From IMG/VR virus record IMGVR_UViG_3300029705_000040, positions 1 to 38,208 of that record: DNA of 38,208 nucleotides. One strand, given 5' to 3'. The notes under the pieces were generated by a model that was not told the origin of the DNA, did not search any database, and worked only from the letters and a program-made list of their open reading frames with translations. The DNA is from a virus. Taxonomy: Duplodnaviria > Heunggongvirae > Uroviricota > Caudoviricetes. Below are positions 3,716 to 38,208 of the stretch, in pieces (position 1 is the first letter of the stretch; the number at the start of each line of letters is the position of its first letter). The position numbers and the translations under genes were made by a program.

Positions 3716-4975
3716 ATGTTTATAGTAAAAAGAAGCGGTAAGCGTGAAAAATTTGACAAAGAAAAAATAAAAATTGTTTTAGAAAAAGCTAATGAAACAG
3801 TTTTAGAAGAGTATCGAATATCTAAAACTATAATAAACAATATAGCTGAGAAGATCGAGAAGCTAGCAGAAGAAAATGCAACTATGTTTACTATAGATGA
3901 TATCCAGGATGCAGTGGAAGATTATCTCATTAAAATAAATAAATATGAGTTAGCTAAATCATATATAAAACATAGATATACGAAAGAATTAGCTAGAGAT
4001 AAATATTCTAAGATGATGGATGCTATTGCGAATAAAGTAGCATGCAAAGATATCCAAAATCAAAATGCTAACTTAGATGAAAAATCTTTTGGTGGTAGAA
4101 TTGGTGAAACATCATCTTTAATAATGAAACAGTTTGCTTTAGATTATTGTGTATCACCCAAAACTAGAGAGAATCATCTCAATAATGAGGTTTATATACA
4201 TGACCTCGATTCTTATGCTGTTGGAAGTCATAACTGTTTAAGTATTCCTTTTGATAAGCTATTAGCTAAAGGCTTTAATACTAGACAAACTGATGTTAGA
4301 CCTGCAAATAGTGTTAATACAGCCATGCAGTTAGTTGCTGTTATATTCCAATTACAAAGTTTACAACAATTCGGTGGAGTAAGTGCAACACATCTAGATT
4401 GGACGATGGTTCCATATGTGAGAAAATCTTTTGCAAAACATTTTAAAGATGGTATGGAAGAATTACCTTTCAAGTGGTGGAAATTGTTTAAGGATACTAG
4501 AAACTATCAACCACCAAAAGAATTACCTTTCGATGATGCTACTATAAACTTAAAAAGATTTAGAAGAGTTTATAGATATGCTATGAAAATGACTAAAAAA
4601 GAAACCCATCAAGCAGTAGAAGCTTTATATCATAACTTAAATACATTGCAAAGTAGATCTGGCTGCCAACTTCCTTTCACCAGCATTAATTTAGGAACAT
4701 GTACGCAAGAAGAAGGGCGGTTAGTCAGTAAAGAAATTCTTACTGTGTGTAGACAGGGTTTAGGTAAGTTTCATAAAACATCTATCTTCCCATGTGTTAT
4801 ATTTCAATGCATGAAGGGTGTTAACCGTAAAAAGGGTGATCCTAATTATGATTTATTTAGGCTAGCATTAAAATCAACTGCTGAGAGATTATACCCCAAC
4901 TATGCTAATGTAGATTGGAGTGGTAATGCTGGATATGATCCAAAAGATCCTAAAACATATTTTTCAACGATGGGT
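3716..4975 (+). CDS. nrdD: Anaerobic (class III) ribonucleotide reductase, exon 1, with N-terminal ATP cone
   Basis: MFIVKRSGKREKFDKEKI ATP cone; YIHDLD, NCL, QFGG, SGCQLPFTSINLG; exon ends ...YFSTMG at T4975. Confidence 0.93.
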
Positions 4976-6039
4976 AAGCGTAAACTACAGCTCATCTAAA
5001 ATCTTTTGAACCTCGCTCGAGGGTGTTTAATATTACTAAATGGGTAGAACCTTAAATATTTTTAATTAAAGGTTATGCTAAATTTATTGATAATATTTTG
5101 CTAACGGTTAGGTCCAGACATCCTGGATGAGACCGTGCTAAGCGGGTGAGGATAGATTTGGTTATATACAAAATAACATGTTTAAAAAATAATAAAATTT
5201 ATATAGGTCAAACAAAAAATACATCTAGAAGACGTTTCGAACATCATGTTAAAGGTGCCTTAACAAATGATTTAGATACGCATTTAGCTAGAGCTATAAG
5301 AAAATATGGTCCAGAAAACTTTATTTTAGAAGATATAGATTTTGCTGAAAATCAAGAAGATTTAACTGAAAAAGAGTATTATTGGATAAATTTTTATGAA
5401 AGCTTTAAGCCAGATATTGGTTATAATGAGACAAATAATAAAAATAAATGCGGCGGAAATACATATAAATTTAAAAGTATTGAAGAAATGCAGAAAATAA
5501 AACGTAAAATCTCAAAAGCAAATTCTGGTTCTAAAAATGGTATGTCAAAAGGTGTTAAATGTAAAAACACAAAAAGCGGAGAAGAATTTCATTTTGGTTC
5601 GACCGCGGAATGTGCTAGGTTTTTTGGTACATATGTAACTGGTTTTATAAGAAAACGCTGTTGTGGTTACAATTACCTATATAAAAATACCTGGGCTTTT
5701 GCTTGGGAAGATGATCAATTTCTTTTAGAATATGAGAATTTTGATCCATCTACTAGAAAAGGAATAAAAGTTTAGCTTTTAAATTTAGAAACAAAAGAGG
5801 TATATACTTTTAATAGTAAAAGTAAAGCAGCAAAATTTCTAAATGTTGAGTTAGCAATTATTAAACATGATATTATTGTAAATAATTATAGAATATCTAT
5901 TCTCAACTGAAAGTGTATCGACTATTCCTGATGAGTTTAAGGAAGTAGGATTGGAGATAAGCACCAATCCGAAGCGGAAGACTACTTATAATAAAAGTAG
6001 AAGATATAGTCAGTGCTAACAGTAATGTTAGATAAAATG
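4976..6039 (+). mobile_element. Group I intron (1064 nt) in nrdD
   Basis: Exon ends in U; GATGGGT pairs with the internal guide GCTCATC giving a U.G pair at the splice site; S element AAGATATAGTC 6001-6011; terminal G6039; splicing restores STMG|CRTANG in frame. Confidence 0.92.
5146..5910 (+). CDS. Intron-encoded GIY-YIG homing endonuclease with NUMOD/IENR-like DNA-binding repeats (254 aa with TAG 5773-75 read as Gln)
   Basis: IYKIT...IYIGQT motif; read-through adds a second repeat (KGIKVQLLNLETKEVYTFNSKSKAAKFLN) matching the first (KGVKCKNTKSGEEFHFGSTAECARFFG); TGA 5908-10. Confidence 0.88.
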
Positions 6040-7014
6040 TGTAGAACAGCGAATGGTTATGATATAAACGGCTTTGCTCAACTAAAAGACGGTAGAGGAA
6101 ACATAGCACCTACTACTATAATTCTTCCAACATTAGCTATGGAAGCAGAGAAAGATGTTAAGAAATTTATGCGCCTTTTGAGAATTAAGTTAGAAGAAGC
6201 GAAAGATTCTTTAATTGATAGATTCGAATGGATTTCAAGTCAATCATCAGATTCTGCAAAATTTATGTATGAAAATGGAACTATGGAAGGTTACATTCCG
6301 AAAGAAGGAATTAGATCAGCATTAAAACATGGTACTTTAGCTATCGGTATGTTAGGTATGGCTGAGACTTTAGAATTATTAGTTGGTTGTAATCATACTA
6401 AACCAGAAGGAATGAAACTAGCAAAGAGAATTTGTTCCTTATATAAACAAAAATGTGCTGAGTATAAAGAAACATATAAGCTTAATTTTGGCGTATATTA
6501 CACACCAGCTGAGAATCTTTGTTATACTGCAATGAATAAATTTGTAGAAGCTTATGGTGTTATTCCTAAAGTTTCAGATCATGAGTATTTTACAAATTCT
6601 ATCCACGTACCAGTTTGGGAAGAAATAGATGCTTTTGAAAAAATAAGAATTGAAAGTGAGCTTACTGGATATAGTTCAGCTGGTTGTATAACATATACTG
6701 AGTTAGATGCATCTGTAGCAAAAAACATAGATGCTTTAGAAGATTTAGTTAATTTTGCTATGGATCATGATATCCCGTACTATGCGATTAATGTACCGGT
6801 AGATCAATGTATGAGTTGTGGCTATCAAGCAGAAATTACAGAAGATATTTGTCCTAAATGCGGTAGTACAAAAATACAGCGATTGAGACGTGTGACAGGT
6901 TATTTGACAGGTTCCTATAAAGATTCTTTCAATTATGGTAAGCAGAAAGAAACCGAAGCTAGGGTAAAACATACAGGTATTTCTGTATTAAAAGATAGCG
7001 AGGATAATGCTTAA
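6040..7014 (+). CDS. nrdD: Class III ribonucleotide reductase, exon 2
   Basis: CRTANG, GRGN, TPAENL, YFTNSIHVP, CxxC-CxxC zinc site, glycyl-radical motif RRVTGYL. Confidence 0.93.
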   Translation, partial: CRTANGYDINGFAQLKDGRGNIAPTTIILPTLAMEAEKDVKKFMRLLRIKLEEAKDSLIDRFEWISSQSSDSAKFMYENGTMEGYIPKEGIRSALKHGTLAIGMLGMAETLELLVGCNHTKPEGMKLAKRICSLYKQKCAEYKETYKLNFGVYYTPAENLCYTAMNKFVEAYGVIPKVSDHEYFTNSIHVPVWEEIDAFEKIRIESELTGYSSAGCITYTELDASVAKNIDALEDLVNFAMDHDIPYYAINVPVDQCMSCGYQAEITEDICPKCGSTKIQRLRRVTGYLTGSYKDSFNYGKQKETEARVKHTGISVLKDSEDNA

Positions 7015-15293: not shown

Positions 15294-15497
15294 ATGAAAT
15301 GTATATTAACAGATAATATTAGATATAAAGTATGTCCACATTGTGATACTATTTTCATATATGACCAGGAATTTAATACGTATAATGTATTTGATGATAA
15401 AGGAAACGCAACTCTCATGGTTGAGTGTCCTGAGTGTAGAAAGTCATCAAAAGATGAGTTTTCAGAAAGTCTTATGAGGAGAATCAATAACACATGA
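15294..15497 (+). CDS. Small zinc-ribbon protein
   Basis: CPHC...CPEC. Confidence 0.7.
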   Translation: MKCILTDNIRYKVCPHCDTIFIYDQEFNTYNVFDDKGNATLMVECPECRKSSKDEFSESLMRRINNT

Positions 15498-16276
15498 TTA
15501 AAGACGAATTGGGTGATAGAATCAAATCAAACTATGAAAATAGAGCTAAAACATATTTATTGAGACGTACACCAGTTATCGTTAGAATTGATGTACGAGC
15601 GTTTCACACTTTAACTAAAAAATTTGAAAAGCCGTTTGATACTATCTTTGGTATGGCTATGCAGATGACTTTAGAAGATATTTGCAAGGAAACACCTGGT
15701 GTTGTTTTTGGTTATGTACAAAGTGATGAAATCTCTATTTTATTGCAAGATTATGCTACTAAACAAACAGAAGCATTTTTTGATTACGCTGTGCAAAAGA
15801 TAAGCTCAGTTATGGCTGGTGTAGCTACTATGTACTTTAATAGAAATTTTCAAAAATTAATTGTGCAGCAAGCAAAATTAGGTATCGATCCATTGAAATA
15901 TCTCGATAAAAATCTTAATCCACTTATGGGTAGCTTCGATGCTAGATGTTTTAACATTCCTAAAGAAGAAGTTTGCAATTATTTTATTTGGCGTCAAAAT
16001 GATGCAAGTAAAAATAGTGTGCAGATGCTAGCTAGGTCGCTTTTTTCACATAAGGATTTGCAAGGTTTAAATCTTTCTCAATTGCAAGATAAAATGATGC
16101 TTGAGAAAGATGTTAATTGGAACGATTTAGAGATTTGGAAAAAACGCGGTGCATGCTGTGTTAGAGACTCTGAAACTAGAAAATGGTTTATTGATAGAGC
16201 TATTCCTATTTTTACAGAAGATAGAGATTATGTAGATAAATTTGTTTATTTAACAGCTTATCAAGAAGAAAATTAA
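15494..16276 (+). CDS. thg1: tRNA-His guanylyltransferase Thg1-like protein
   Basis: VRIDVRAFHTLT, YVQSDEISILL, SFDAR, NYFIWRQNDASKNS, VNWNDLEIWKKRG. Confidence 0.9.
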   Translation: MIKDELGDRIKSNYENRAKTYLLRRTPVIVRIDVRAFHTLTKKFEKPFDTIFGMAMQMTLEDICKETPGVVFGYVQSDEISILLQDYATKQTEAFFDYAVQKISSVMAGVATMYFNRNFQKLIVQQAKLGIDPLKYLDKNLNPLMGSFDARCFNIPKEEVCNYFIWRQNDASKNSVQMLARSLFSHKDLQGLNLSQLQDKMMLEKDVNWNDLEIWKKRGACCVRDSETRKWFIDRAIPIFTEDRDYVDKFVYLTAYQEEN

Positions 16277-27230: not shown

Positions 27231-27321
27231 TGCCCCTTAGGTTAATGGTAAACCGCCGGTCTCTAAAACCGTTATACTCTCTGAAAGGGTAATCTGGGTT
27301 CGAATCCCAGAGGGGTAGCCA
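27231..27321 (+). tRNA. Amber suppressor tRNA (anticodon CUA) with long variable arm
   Basis: Acceptor TGCCCCT/AGGGGTA, G73, CCA; D stem GGTT/AACC; loop CT-CTA-AA (27263-65); ~20-nt variable hairpin; T arm CTGGG-TTCGAAT-CCCAG. Confidence 0.88.
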
Positions 27322-27325
27322 ATAC

Positions 27326-27403
27326 TGGGGATTAGCATAACGGCTATTGTGCGGCGGACTCTAAATCCGTTTTGAGCTGGGTCGGCACCAGCATCCCCCG
27401 CCA
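27326..27403 (+). tRNA. Amber suppressor tRNA (anticodon CUA), tRNA-Gln-derived
   Basis: Acceptor TGGGGAT/ATCCCCC, G73, CCA; anticodon arm GCGGA-CT CTA AA-TCCGT (27361-63), close to Firmicute tRNA-Gln ACGGA-CT TTG AC-TCCGT; atypical T loop GTCGGCA. Confidence 0.88.
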
Positions 27404-34873: not shown

Positions 34874-35151
34874 ACGCTTATAACAGGTTGTAAAGGCCTA
34901 ACAACTTTAGAGGTAAGATGGCTGATTGAAAAAGATCAGCATACGTATCCTGAGTGCCCTTCGATTCGGTTCGACTCCAAACATTCGCATCGGAATAGCG
35001 AGAGGGTAGGTCACGAGAGTCGTAAGATAGTTCGAGTCTATCCCTCAAGTTTATCTTTTTACAATTACTAAATATGTGCTAAAATTATTGTATAATATAT
35101 TATATGATATAAGGAAACATATTTATGAGTGAGAAAAAAGATTAGAAATTA

Positions 35152-36006
35152 TTGAAAAAATATCTTCTTAAAAATGTTGAAAATGGATATGTACCATCAC
35201 CGGAAGATACTAGAGACTACACAATTAAAAATGTTGCTTTAGAAGAAACAGATGAAATACCTGAAACTTACATAAAGAAGGGTATGAAAGTACTTAGTCA
35301 AGGTAATGTTGGAAGTTGCGTTGCTCATGCTTGTGCCACTGCTATGGGGTATGGTGAGTTAGCTGGTGGTTTTGAAACTGCTCATGATTTCAGTAGAGGT
35401 TATATCTATGGTAATAGAGGTCCTGCTGATTCGCAAAGTGAAGGTATGTATATACGTCAAGCATTAAAACAGTTAAATAAATGTGGTGATGTTGAGTATA
35501 TAGATTTTCCGCTAAATGCTAAATATCCAGTAGTTAAAGCAGAAATAGAGAAGAATAAAGATGCTTTAGCTGAAAAAGCAGCTCAATTTAAAATAGTAAA
35601 TTACTTTAGATGCTATAGTGATGAGGAAGTTAAGAAGACTCTTCTAGCTCAAGGTGCCGTAGTTATAGGTATTCCTGTATATAGCTCATTTAAAGCGGAA
35701 TGTCCATTACCTGATGCTGATGATAAACGCACTGGTGGTCACGCTATGGTTGTTGTTGGTTGGGATGAAACAGGCTGGATTATACAAAATAGTTGGTCTA
35801 GCAGTTGGGGTAAGCAAGGATTTATGCATTTACCATACGATTATCCTATTGATGAGTTATGGGGAATAACAGTCAATAAAAATGTTCCACAACCTGAACA
35901 AAAATCAGCTACAGATAGAATTGTTGCTTTCCTCGCTTTCTATATTAAGTATCTATTAAGAGAAATTAAAAGATTTTTTTTACAAAAAATAAGTAAAAAT
36001 AGTTGA
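35152..36006 (+). CDS. Papain-like (C1A) cysteine peptidase
   Basis: SQGNVGSCVAHA (Gln/Cys), GGHAMVVVG (His), IQNSW (Asn), WGKQG. Confidence 0.88.
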   Translation: MKKYLLKNVENGYVPSPEDTRDYTIKNVALEETDEIPETYIKKGMKVLSQGNVGSCVAHACATAMGYGELAGGFETAHDFSRGYIYGNRGPADSQSEGMYIRQALKQLNKCGDVEYIDFPLNAKYPVVKAEIEKNKDALAEKAAQFKIVNYFRCYSDEEVKKTLLAQGAVVIGIPVYSSFKAECPLPDADDKRTGGHAMVVVGWDETGWIIQNSWSSSWGKQGFMHLPYDYPIDELWGITVNKNVPQPEQKSATDRIVAFLAFYIKYLLREIKRFFLQKISKNS

Positions 36007-36221: not shown

Positions 36222-36393
36222 AATAAAAAGAGAAATTCCTTAAAATTGTTTAATAAGAAAAATATGCGTAAAATATTAATAGCAAGATAGTCACTTAAAA
36301 TTTAGATAATAGCAAGACTGTGAGTAATATGATGTACACATAAATCTCACCGCATATCCTAAAGATGAAAGTTCTTTAGCTCAAATATTATAT

Positions 36394-36482
36394 CACTGGA
36401 GGTTCGCTATAGGTAAGCGGAGCGTGCTGTGCACGTGAGTTGGTAGTAACAACTCTTATCGGTTCGAGTCCGATTCCGGTGC
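36394..36482 (+). tRNA. Class II-shaped tRNA-like gene, possible His identity (GUG in loop, C73), no encoded G-1 or CCA
   Basis: Acceptor CACTGGA/TCCGGTG; 6-bp D stem; loop CTGTG(CA); variable arm GAGTTG/CAACTC; T arm ATCGG-TTCGAGT-CCGAT. Confidence 0.6.
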
Positions 36483-36546
36483 AAACTGATATAGCCCGAC
36501 GGGGCTTGAGATTATGTTGACGCTGTGGAATTAGACACAGATGCAT

Positions 36547-36683
36547 CGGAACCTAGCTCAACCAGGTGAGAGCCCCGGTCTTACGTAGAGAAAGGAATCA
36601 GTTAGTTCAATTCTAACCCCTACGACCATAAACCGGAAGCCCTAGCAAGGTAAATCTGAGTTCGATTCTCAGGGTTCCGACCA
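36547..36683 (+). tRNA. Interrupted tRNA carrying a 45-nt mini-tRNA insert (36584-36628) in its anticodon loop
   Basis: Perfect acceptor CGGAACC/GGTTCCG, A73-CCA; D stem GCTC/GAGC; anticodon stem CCGGT/ACCGG flanks the insert; T arm CTGAG-TTCGATT-CTCAG. Confidence 0.8.
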
Positions 36684-36687
36684 AGAT

Positions 36688-36763
36688 GGGCCATTAGCGC
36701 AATGGTTAGAGCTCCCCGCTCATAACGGGGCGGTTCTCGGTTCGAGTCCGAGGTGGCCCACCA
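36688..36763 (+). tRNA. tRNA-Ile2 (CAU, lysidine type) or tRNA-Met
   Basis: Canonical 76 nt: GGGCCAT/GTGGCCC, CCCCG-CT CAT AA-CGGGG, A73-CCA; acceptor resembles bacterial Ile2. Confidence 0.88.
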
Positions 36764-36784
36764 CTTTTATTTGTAGGTGTTAGC

Positions 36785-37012
36785 ATGAAGAAAAACAATG
36801 AGTATAATCTTTTTAATGAAATTTTATACATGATTGATAATTGGTGTGATGATTCGATTAGCTTTATCAATAGAAATGATTTTATTGTGCAAGTACATAA
36901 TCAATGGTCAAGATATCAAGCCTATCCGAGAATGGTTTCGATTTCAAAAAAGAGTATTATAGTTGTTTGGTCAAACGAATTTAGAGATAAATATTTAAGA
37001 AACAAAAATTAA
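36785..37012 (+). CDS. Hypothetical protein
   Basis: 75 aa. Confidence 0.65.
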   Translation: MKKNNEYNLFNEILYMIDNWCDDSISFINRNDFIVQVHNQWSRYQAYPRMVSISKKSIIVVWSNEFRDKYLRNKN

Positions 37013-37726: not shown

Positions 37727-38208
37727 ATGTCTGAAAAGCGTAAAGTTTAGCAACCAAAAACACAATGCAATAAATGTGGTAGATTCATTACAAATGCTAA
37801 TTTTAAAAAACACTCCAATAGTTGCGATGGTATAATTAAAAATTATGCATCTAAATATGATTATATATCAAACTTGATATGTCCATTTTGTGATTGTAAA
37901 AAAGAAACTAGAAATAGCCTTATTCAACATATTGTTAGATGTCCTAAAAATCCAGATAGGAAAGATTGGGATAAATTAGGAAAATATTCAACAAAAAACC
38001 GAAGAGGATAGACTAAAGAAACTAACAATAACATTGCGTTAGTAACGCAAAAATTAGTAGAATCTTATAAAAATGGAACTAGAAAAAGCTAGCTAACCCA
38101 TGGAACTGTTACGAGTATTTATAAGGATCACAACGATCAAGAAATAGCTAAATATTTATCTTATATAAGTACTTTATCTGAGACATTACCTAAATACAAT
38201 AAAATAAA
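37727..38208 (+). CDS. Zinc-finger protein, possibly a homing endonuclease N-terminus; 3 in-frame TAG; 3' truncated
   Basis: GGAG RBS; CNKC...H...C, CPFC...H...CPKNPDR, G[TAG]TKET; TAG at 37748, 38009, 38090. Confidence 0.75.

What the first reader, a model, noticed from the sequence alone, without database searches (positions are those of the whole stretch)
36547..36683. Nested tRNA: a CCA-ending mini-tRNA inside the anticodon loop of another tRNA
Seen: the outer tRNA has a perfect acceptor stem (CGGAACC 36547-53 / GGTTCCG 36673-79, A-CCA), D stem, T arm, long variable arm and anticodon stem CCGGT 36575-79 / ACCGG 36632-36. Its loop is interrupted by 36584-36628, which folds as its own acceptor stem (CGTAGAG/CCCTACG, one mismatch), a 10-nt linker, a T arm GTTAG-TTCAATT-CTAAC and an ACCA end. 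The insert is therefore an armless minihelix-like tRNA. Exact removal leaves a canonical 7-nt loop CU-UAU-AA; other junctions would give UAC or CAU. The insert is too small for a group I or II intron and does not form an obvious bulge-helix-bulge. Inference: host or phage tRNA-processing enzymes (RNase P and 3' processing) could excise it, leaving halves that need ligation. That would be a new kind of tRNA intron, a switchable tRNA, or a nuclease decoy.
Basis: partly seen in the sequence, partly recalled or inferred. Interest (0 to 1): 0.9.

Follow-up and report, generated by a model that had tools for sequence, protein, structure and literature searches.

The report
tRNA-shaped mini-intron in phage tRNA
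A tRNA gene of an uncultured cattle-gut phage is split inside its anticodon by a 45-base insert shaped like the top half of a tRNA; this rare, barely described phage intron type is probably cut out by ordinary tRNA-trimming enzymes and resealed by an RNA ligase, but nobody has yet seen the splicing.

Summary
The insert has a 7-bp stem, a 10-nt linker, a canonical T arm and an ACCA tail. Removing it exactly leaves the loop CUUAUAA (anticodon UAU), the loop that intronless homologues carry in two other phages.

The arrangement is not an assembly artefact, because independent metagenome assemblies hold it. A sister strain has a second allele: its inner stem is rewritten by three compensatory pair swaps, yet it gives the same spliced product. 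That allele differs at 20 of 45 intron positions, against about 2% divergence in the flanks.

I found the same design in four other phage tRNAs (Asn twice, Lys, Gln). I also found a free-standing homologue of the minihelix in a phage intergenic region.

The record encodes an Rnl5-type RNA ligase, a PNK-like kinase and a Thg1-like enzyme. It has no RtcB, EndA, RNase Z or RNase P RNA.

The best reading is a tRNA-shaped intron: host RNase P cuts at its 5' end, an unknown cut follows CCA, and a ligase seals the exons. No RNA data covered the site.

The only published precedent I found is the 'enigmatic' Lak megaphage tRNA introns (Devoto 2019). This scan has noted the class before in at least 14 other genomes.

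The parts
36547..36583 (+). Exon 1 of the outer tRNA. It holds the acceptor 5' strand (36547-53), the D arm (36556-73), the anticodon-stem 5' strand (36575-79) and the loop bases CUUA (36580-83).
36584..36628 (+). tRNA-shaped mini-intron. Stem 5' strand 36584-90; linker AAAGGAAUCA 36591-600; T stem and loop 36601-17; stem 3' strand 36618-24; ACCA 36625-28. The boundaries may equally lie one base to the left (36583-36627); both registers give the same product.
   Evidence: A second allele is seen in L034 and run X10.
36629..36683 (+). Exon 2. It holds the loop bases UAA, the anticodon-stem 3' strand (36632-36), the 19-nt variable region (36637-55), the T arm (36656-72), the acceptor 3' strand (36673-79) and ACCA.
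   Evidence: It aligns with the intronless homologues L037:1955-2044 and L160:379-467(-).
36688..36763 (+). tRNA(CAU) lying 4 nt downstream. It probably shares a precursor transcript with the split tRNA.
15494..16276 (+). Thg1-like tRNA 5'-end repair enzyme. It is part of the phage's RNA repair kit. The Rnl5-type ligase (genome 84439-85668) and the PNK-like kinase (genome 61415-62422) lie outside the window.

Best explanation
36547-36683 is a working gene for a long-variable-arm tRNA with anticodon UAU, which reads AUA. Its anticodon is interrupted by a 45-nt intron that mimics the acceptor/T-arm half of a tRNA.

Shown:
- the architecture;
- conservation of the intron by structure rather than by sequence;
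- exact excision restores the loop of intronless homologues;
- the same design occurs in other phage tRNAs;
- the phage encodes a ligase for 3'-OH/5'-P ends.

Inferred:
- The precursor folds as two stacked tRNA-like domains.
- Host RNase P recognises the inner 12-bp acceptor/T helix with its RCCA tail and cuts at the intron's first base. This leaves exon 1 with a 3'-OH.
- A second precise cut directly after the inner CCA frees exon 2 with a 5'-phosphate. Candidates are an RNase Z/BN-type enzyme or an unidentified one.
- The two exons are still held together by the outer anticodon and acceptor stems. The nick in the anticodon is sealed by the phage Rnl5-type ligase, after end-healing by the PNK-like kinase if the ends require it.

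Likelihoods:
- About 0.65 that the insert is removed to give a functional tRNA.
- About 0.6 that, if so, RNase P makes the 5' cut.
- The 3' nuclease is unknown.

The intron behaves as a swappable, probably mobile cassette.
For: - ARAGORN calls the intron-containing tRNA.
- Splicing out [stem start..CCA] gives a canonical tRNA in all six nested cases found: Ile-UAU twice, Asn-GUU twice, Lys-UUU and Gln-UUG. Each has a 7-nt loop with U33 and R37.
- Intronless homologues with the same unusual variable arm carry the loops CUUAUAU and CUUAUAA.
- Covariation over seven elements: inner stem 47/49 cells paired, 6 of 7 positions with double changes, 0/5000 shuffles reach this; T stem 35/35 cells paired.
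- The T arm keeps G53-C61 and UUCRA, and all six elements end in RCCA.
- The bases at -1/+1 are U/G in 5 of 6 elements, the known RNase P preference. About 25 of the phage's 35 ordinary tRNAs have U at -1.
- Against the sister strain L034, the flanks differ by about 2% but 20 of 45 intron positions differ, with the structure and the spliced product unchanged.
- A free-standing homologue of the minihelix lies in an intergenic region of another phage, as expected for an autonomous processing signal.
- The ligase matches Naegleria Rnl5 at E 5.5e-29 and Pfam PF09414. The three sizeable other nested-tRNA records also have a PF09414 ligase.
- AUA makes up 31% of Ile codons in the phage.
- 45 nt is too small to self-splice, and Rfam finds no ribozyme or group I match.
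Against: - No RNA evidence: the only RNA run did not cover the site.
- In this window's allele the bases at -1/+1 are A/C (or U/A in the other register), not the favoured U/G, and the stem has an A.C mismatch.
- No known bacterial enzyme is established to cut precisely after an internal CCA in the likely hosts. CCA normally blocks RNase Z (from memory). No RNase Z-like gene is in the record.
- RNA ligases are common in large phages, so their presence is weak evidence.
- In the published Lak tRNA-Tyr intron the tRNA-like part covers only the 3' end of the intron and ends in CUA. RNase P therefore cannot define the 5' splice site in every member of the class.
- Neighbouring tRNA-like genes in this island look degenerate (36394-36482, and note e1-5456310), so decay cannot be excluded.
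- The record is only about 76% complete.
Confidence: 0.5

Rival explanations
1. It is an intron, but a different pathway removes it. A dedicated (phage or host) endonuclease recognises the tRNA-like fold and leaves 2',3'-cyclic phosphate and 5'-OH ends. These ends are healed by the PNK-like kinase/phosphatase and then sealed by the ligase, as in the T4 Pnkp/Rnl anticodon-loop repair.
For: The phage carries an AAA_33 kinase with an uncharacterised C-terminal half, a Thg1-like enzyme and a ligase. No enzyme for the cut after CCA is known. The Lak Tyr intron has a 5' extension that RNase P could not remove.
Against: No candidate endonuclease was identified. No EndA or RtcB is present. The strict RCCA tail, the 12-bp stack and the U(-1)/G(+1) bias fit RNase P better than an unknown nuclease.
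Confidence: 0.15
2. It is not spliced. A selfish mobile minihelix has landed in and inactivated a dispensable tRNA gene. The RNA is cut into halves plus a minihelix, or is not processed at all, and has no decoding role.
For: The intron allele is swapped between near-identical strains. A homologous minihelix sits outside any tRNA. Several neighbouring tRNA-like genes have defective anticodon arms. The two strains are too close for exon conservation to prove selection.
Against: All four outer stems are perfect. In six independent cases exact excision restores a 7-nt loop with U33 and R37. In L036/L037 the split gene is the only tRNA-Asn found in the stretches held. AUA is a heavily used codon. 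Random insertion would not keep the register.
Confidence: 0.15
3. The inner 45-nt CCA-ended minihelix is the real product, for example a decoy, primer or regulator. The outer tRNA serves as an expression and stabilising scaffold, much like engineered tRNA scaffolds that hold an insert in the anticodon loop.
For: The minihelix family also exists free-standing. A near-identical linker plus T arm sits in rRNA leaders of Flavobacteriaceae. The conserved GG in the linker could mimic the D-loop contact (inference).
Against: The stem sequence is free to change completely, so it has no sequence-specific target. Inner elements in different tRNAs differ widely in size and content (45-115 nt). A scaffold role does not explain why excision always rebuilds a proper anticodon loop.
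Confidence: 0.1
4. It is an assembly chimera or a chance resemblance.
For: None found.
Against: The same arrangement is in independent contigs from several studies. There were 0 hits in the reversed-sequence controls. The stems covary.
Confidence: 0.01

Closest known systems
'Enigmatic' tRNA introns of Lak megaphages (Devoto et al. 2019, Nat Microbiol, PMC6784885; text, Fig. 4 legend and Table S6 read)
   Same: These are short introns in the anticodon loops of phage tRNA genes, present or absent between related phages. One (tRNA-Thr) is said to 'itself encode a tRNA'. The Tyr intron in Table S6 carries a T arm and a 7-bp stem abutting exon 2.
   Different: The paper only notes them. It proposes no structure rule, no covariation and no mechanism. 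The Lak Tyr intron is 93 nt, has a 26-nt 5' extension and ends in CUA. Here the whole 45-nt insert is the minihelix, running from its first base to CCA. The host range also differs (Prevotella megaphages versus a 164-kb+ phage with SPbeta-like relatives).
Group I introns in bacterial and phage tRNA anticodon loops (cyanobacterial tRNA-Leu UAA, Azoarcus tRNA-Ile)
   Same: They are inserted inside the anticodon of a bacterial-type tRNA, are mobile, and show presence/absence polymorphism.
   Different: Group I introns are about 200 nt or longer, have a P1-P9 core, self-splice and end in G. This insert is 45 nt, ends in A, and has no Rfam group I match.
Archaeal/eukaryal bulge-helix-bulge tRNA introns (EndA/Sen plus RtcB or Trl1)
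   Same: They are short, protein-dependent introns in the anticodon loop, and the exons are rejoined by a ligase.
   Different: There is no BHB motif here. The insert lies at 34/35 or 35/36, not 37/38. The record has no EndA or RtcB.
tRNA-like processing signals cut by RNase P and RNase Z: minihelix model substrates of RNase P (McClain, Guerrier-Takada and Altman 1987) and mascRNA of MALAT1 (from memory)
   Same: An acceptor/T-arm mimic embedded in a longer RNA directs precise cleavage at its 5' end and near its 3' end.
   Different: Those elements mark RNA ends and are not followed by exon ligation. None sits inside a tRNA.
T4 anticodon-loop repair (Pnkp plus Rnl1) and Rnl5 ligases (Naegleria NgrRnl, PDB 5COT)
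   Same: A phage-encoded ligase seals a break in a tRNA anticodon loop. The ligase here matches NgrRnl at E 5.5e-29.
   Different: That pathway repairs damage done by host anticodon nucleases. A role in planned splicing is only inferred here.

Membership tests
tRNA-shaped (minihelix) introns of phage tRNA genes | The insert lies in the anticodon loop of an otherwise canonical tRNA. | tested here: met
   All four outer stems are perfect.
tRNA-shaped (minihelix) introns of phage tRNA genes | The insert folds as a 7-bp acceptor-like stem stacked on a 5-bp T stem with a T-loop consensus. | tested here: met
   The stem has 6 of 7 pairs. The T arm is GTTAG-TTCAATT-CTAAC with the G53-C61 pair.
tRNA-shaped (minihelix) introns of phage tRNA genes | The insert ends in NCCA directly abutting exon 2. 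| tested here: met
   ACCA at 36625-28. The same holds in all six nested cases.
tRNA-shaped (minihelix) introns of phage tRNA genes | Exact removal restores a 7-nt anticodon loop that matches intronless homologues. | tested here: met
   The spliced loop is CUUAUAA. The intronless homologues are L037:1955-2044 and L160:379-467(-).
tRNA-shaped (minihelix) introns of phage tRNA genes | The intron is removed from the RNA in vivo. | not testable with these tools
   The only RNA run (X20) had no contig over 36547-36683.
Group I intron | Conserved P3-P9 core, a terminal G, and a size of about 200 nt or more. | tested here: not met
   The insert is 45 nt and ends in A. No RF00028 match at E<=10 or at the gathering score.
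Bulge-helix-bulge intron | Two 3-nt bulges separated by a 4-bp helix at the splice sites, plus an EndA-type endonuclease. | tested here: not met
   The splice sites lie in a 4 x 7-nt internal loop. Exon bases CUUA cannot pair with the intron bases before CCA. No PF01974 match in the record.
Bacterial RNase P substrate | 12-bp acceptor/T coaxial stack, a T loop and a 3' RCCA. | tested here: met
   7 + 5 bp, UUCAAUU loop and ACCA tail.
Bacterial RNase P substrate | Favoured U(-1)/G(+1) at the cleavage site. | tested here: inconclusive
   A/C in this allele (U/A in the other register). U/G in the other five nested elements.
Bacterial RNase P substrate | Cleavage by RNase P. | not testable with these tools
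   Needs an in vitro assay.
tRNA-Ile(UAU) | Anticodon UAU, discriminator A73, class I shape, charged by IleRS. | tested here: inconclusive
   UAU and A73 are met. The 19-nt variable region is atypical for Ile. Charging cannot be tested, so the amino-acid identity is open.

The most novel reading that the evidence does not exclude
Bacteria-infecting phages use a third, undescribed route of tRNA splicing. The intron is a miniature tRNA, so the cell's own tRNA end-processing machinery excises it: RNase P at its 5' end and a CCA-respecting endonuclease at its 3' end. A phage Rnl5-type ligase then rejoins the anticodon. The intron is a swappable mobile cassette. Its relatives also serve as free-standing processing signals in phage intergenic regions, and perhaps in bacterial rRNA leaders.
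Probability: 0.35. Interest if true: 0.9.

Novelty: new variant of a known kind. Interest (0 to 1): 0.75.

Why it matters
In bacteria and their viruses, tRNA introns are known only as self-splicing group I elements. A 45-nt intron cannot splice itself, so proteins or RNase P must remove it and a ligase must rejoin the tRNA.

If that is shown, it would be a new splicing pathway built from universal tRNA-maturation enzymes. It would also give phage RNA ligases and repair kits a routine job beyond countering anticodon nucleases, and it would explain the 'enigmatic' introns reported in megaphages in 2019.

This locus is a convenient test case:
- It is the smallest version I saw.
- It has two natural alleles with rewritten stems.
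- Intronless homologues are available for comparison.

Tried and rejected
Searches that found no orthologue of this gene:
- No near or distant DNA relatives of the locus in the INPHARED phage records. Only the neighbouring tRNA-Met matched.
- Exact or IUPAC patterns from the intron and from exon 1 found nothing in IMG/VR.
- A scan with the peptidase as a single protein found no relatives.
- Twelve distant relatives reached through a 699-aa protein hold no homologue of the element.
- 80 IMG/VR loci and 32 metagenome loci reached through the peptidase profile gave no further orthologue of this Ile gene. They did give other nested tRNAs.

RNA evidence:
- The single RNA run (X20) covered only 36388-36476 and part of the tRNA-Met.
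- No joints were seen in any run. This says nothing either way about splicing.

Alignment and modelling:
- MAFFT misaligned the inner 5' strands of the six elements.
- I therefore built no covariance model and counted pairs in a hand-set register instead.
- The elements were found by a scanner that requires 6 of 7 pairs, so the share of paired cells is partly by construction. The diversity of pair types is not.

Rfam:
- On the 115-nt introns Rfam found only the outer tRNA.

Enzymes not found in the 164-kb record, which is about 76% complete:
- RtcB, an RNase Z-like metallo-beta-lactamase, EndA, a CCA-adding enzyme and RNase P RNA.

Readings rejected:
- An alanine-minihelix reading (G3:U70) does not hold. 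Position 3:70 is U-A.
- A chimeric tRNA made of the outer 5' half and the inner T arm (the weak Rfam hit) does not hold. The strands do not pair.
- The UAC (Val) and CAU junctions were set aside because they do not match the intronless homologues.

Literature:
- Searches found no description of this class beyond Devoto 2019.

Full report
**Setting**

The window is the first 38.2 kb of a 164-kb linear IMG/VR virus record that is about 76% complete. Its GC content is 32%. It carries about 37 tRNA genes between 27 and 55 kb, all on the + strand. Runs that hold the locus are animal, including bovine, gut and faeces metagenomes.

**Observation**

- ARAGORN in default mode skips the locus.
- With introns allowed it calls a 92-nt tRNA at 36547-36683 with a 45-nt intron.
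- The outer acceptor, D, anticodon and T stems are all perfect.
- The insert 36584-36628 has a 7-bp stem with one A.C mismatch, a 10-nt linker, a T arm with the G53-C61 pair and a UUCAAUU loop, and an ACCA tail.
- ARAGORN's own junction gives UAC. Removing exactly [stem start..CCA] gives the loop CUUAUAA, and the spliced sequence is called tRNA(UAU).
- The nested double cloverleaf lies 4 kcal/mol above the MFE, which is usual for tRNAs.
- A strict scanner for this architecture found no hit in more than 2 Mb of reversed control sequence.

**It is real DNA**

- A contig of run X7 spans 36300-36800 with the element unchanged.
- Run X19 has the element with two point changes.
- Run X10 and ENA contig L034 carry a second allele.
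- No run showed an intronless DNA form.

**Comparative evidence**

Homologues of the adjacent C1A peptidase led to related contigs.

*The sister allele.* L034:1726-1863 is the orthologue in a sister strain.
- The flanks differ by about 2 per 100 nt.
- 20 of the 45 intron positions differ.
- The inner stem is rewritten from CGTAGAG/CCCTACG to GATCGAT/ATCGACC, which is three double compensatory swaps.
- The T arm, the ACCA tail and the spliced loop CUUAUAA are all kept.
- A neutral rate cannot exceed that of the intergenic background, so this points to replacement of the intron cassette rather than in-place drift.

*Intronless homologues.* Copies with the same odd variable arm (..CCCU NNNN AGGUAAAUC) occur in L037:1955-2044 (loop CUUAUAU) and L160:379-467(-) (loop CUUAUAA). 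These fix the junction and show presence/absence polymorphism.

*Other nested tRNAs.* The same design occurs in four other phage tRNA genes.

| Locus | tRNA | Insert |
|---|---|---|
| L036/L037 | Asn-GUU | 63 nt |
| L024 | Asn-GUU | 56 nt |
| L049 | Lys-UUU | 115 nt |
| L079/L125 | Gln-UUG | 115 nt |

The two 115-nt inserts are homologous. The minimum-energy fold of L079's insert is a full cloverleaf-like shape with a GAAA loop; L049's minimum-energy fold recovers only the outer stem.

*Covariation.* Over seven elements:
- The inner stem pairs in 47 of 49 cells, with double changes at 6 of 7 positions (0/5000 shuffles reach this).
- The T stem pairs in 35 of 35 cells.
- All elements end in RCCA.
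- The bases at -1/+1 are U/G in five of six.
- Caveat: my scanner required 6 of 7 pairs, so the share of paired cells is partly by construction. The diversity of pair types is not.

*A free-standing homologue.* A homologue of this very minihelix (TGTAGAG, linker AUAGGAAAGCAA, the same T arm, ACCA) sits alone in a 240-nt intergenic region of another phage (L163).

*A possible bacterial relative.* A near-identical linker plus T arm, flanked by complementary strands but without CCA, lies about 190 nt upstream of the 16S rRNA in two marine Flavobacteriaceae genomes. About three chance hits were expected for that pattern. The extra matching bases and the flanking complementarity make this a lead, not a proof.

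**Enzymes**

Present in the record:
- An RNA ligase (PF09414 plus an N-terminal OB domain), closest to Naegleria Rnl5 at E 5.5e-29.
- An AAA_33 PNK-like kinase.
- A Thg1-like enzyme.

Absent from the record:
- RtcB, EndA, an RNase Z-like metallo-beta-lactamase, a CCA-adding enzyme and RNase P RNA.

Other points:
- The three sizeable other records with nested tRNAs also have a PF09414 ligase. Such ligases are common in large phages, so this is weak support.
- 30 of the 35 ordinary tRNA genes encode CCA, and about 25 have U at -1.
- AUA makes up 31% of Ile codons, so a UAU tRNA would be useful to the phage.

**Mechanism**

The insert is far too small to self-splice and has no ribozyme or group I match. 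It has no bulge-helix-bulge motif. Its conserved features are exactly those that bacterial RNase P reads, from established knowledge: a 12-bp acceptor/T stack, a T loop and RCCA.

The most likely route is as follows.
- RNase P cuts at the intron's 5' end.
- A second precise cut follows CCA.
- The exons are held by the outer stems and are sealed by the ligase. The Rnl5 type seals 3'-OH/5'-P ends (from memory), which are the ends that RNase P and RNase Z produce.

Only the anatomy is shown; every enzymatic step is inferred. The weak points are:
- There is no RNA evidence.
- The 3' nuclease is unknown.
- The window allele has a non-preferred A/C at -1/+1.
- The published Lak tRNA-Tyr intron has a tRNA-like part that covers only its 3' end and finishes in CUA.

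**Comparison with what is known**

The only published precedent I could find is Devoto et al. 2019 (PMC6784885). It reports 'enigmatic' introns in Lak megaphage tRNAs, one of which 'may encode a tRNA'. Five further literature searches found nothing more.

Earlier notes of this scan describe the same class in at least 14 other genomes. I used them as a lead to that paper and checked the paper myself.

This case adds four things:
- the smallest (45-nt) version;
- two natural alleles with rewritten stems;
- intronless homologues of an unusual long-armed UAU tRNA;
- free-standing relatives of the minihelix.

**Verdict**

The intron reading is well supported, and the mechanism is plausible but untested. 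Interest 0.75. It is a new variant of a barely described kind.

Noticed in passing
window 36394-36482: This is an 89-nt tRNA-like gene that ARAGORN calls His(GUG), with a poor anticodon stem. An alternative reading is an extra 5-bp hairpin after the D arm, followed by a good 6-bp arm with the loop GUAGUAA. A contig from an RNA library (X20) covers 36388-36476.
   Followed up: partly
window 27231-27321 and 27326-27403; ORFs 35125-36006 and 37727-38208+: There are two tRNAs with anticodon CUA. The peptidase and an HNH-like ORF have in-frame TAG codons, and a close relative's peptidase only translates with TAG=Q. Reading TAG as sense also raises ORF coverage at 120-140 kb of the genome. Together these suggest that TAG is probably reassigned in part of this phage.
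   Followed up: partly
window 37727-38208 (runs on to genome 38494): This is a 255-aa ORF, read with TAG=Q, with a near-threshold HNH_3 match (24.1 bits against a cut-off of 24.8). It lies 1 kb downstream of the split tRNA. It may be a free-standing homing endonuclease in the tRNA island.
   Followed up: partly
window 3716-7014: The anaerobic ribonucleotide reductase gene nrdD is split into two ORFs (3716-4999 and 6013-7014) by about 1 kb that holds a GIY-YIG endonuclease ORF (5146-5775). Rfam finds no group I intron there.
   Followed up: no
L163 (IMGVR_UViG_3300035498_000750), minus strand, about 961-1007: A free-standing homologue of the 45-nt minihelix, ending in ACCA, lies in a 240-nt intergenic region with no outer tRNA. 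It sits just after a TATATAT box and before three copies of a repeat of about 28 nt, followed by a scaffold-like gene.
   Followed up: partly
L165:6290-6350, L167, L174 (marine Flavobacteriaceae MAGs): A near-identical linker plus T arm (AUAGGAAAGUAA GUUAG UUCAAGU CUAAC) is flanked by complementary strands but has no CCA. It occurs in every rRNA operon leader examined, about 190 nt upstream of the 16S rRNA.
   Followed up: partly
L049:282-396 and L079:3105-3219: These two 115-nt tRNA-shaped introns sit in different tRNA genes (Lys, Gln). They share a conserved internal domain with a GAAA loop and CCUAA/UAUGG motifs that recall a tetraloop receptor. Rfam has no family for it.
   Followed up: partly
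L047:5682-5809 (=L048); L069:12007-12146: Other insert types were seen in phage tRNAs. One is a 60-nt AT-rich hairpin insert without CCA in an anticodon loop. The other is a tRNA(CUA) with an insert of about 60 nt between the D arm and the anticodon arm.
   Followed up: no
genome 44562-44673 (L002:6564-6673): This is a 110-nt tRNA-like gene (Rfam tRNA, 35 bits) with two T-arm-like hairpins and no proper 7-nt anticodon loop.
   Followed up: no
window 36637-36655; L037:1955-2044; L160:379-467(-): This is a family of phage tRNAs with anticodon UAU, a class I D arm and a conserved 19-20-nt variable region with only a 3-bp stem. Its amino-acid identity is uncertain.
   Followed up: partly
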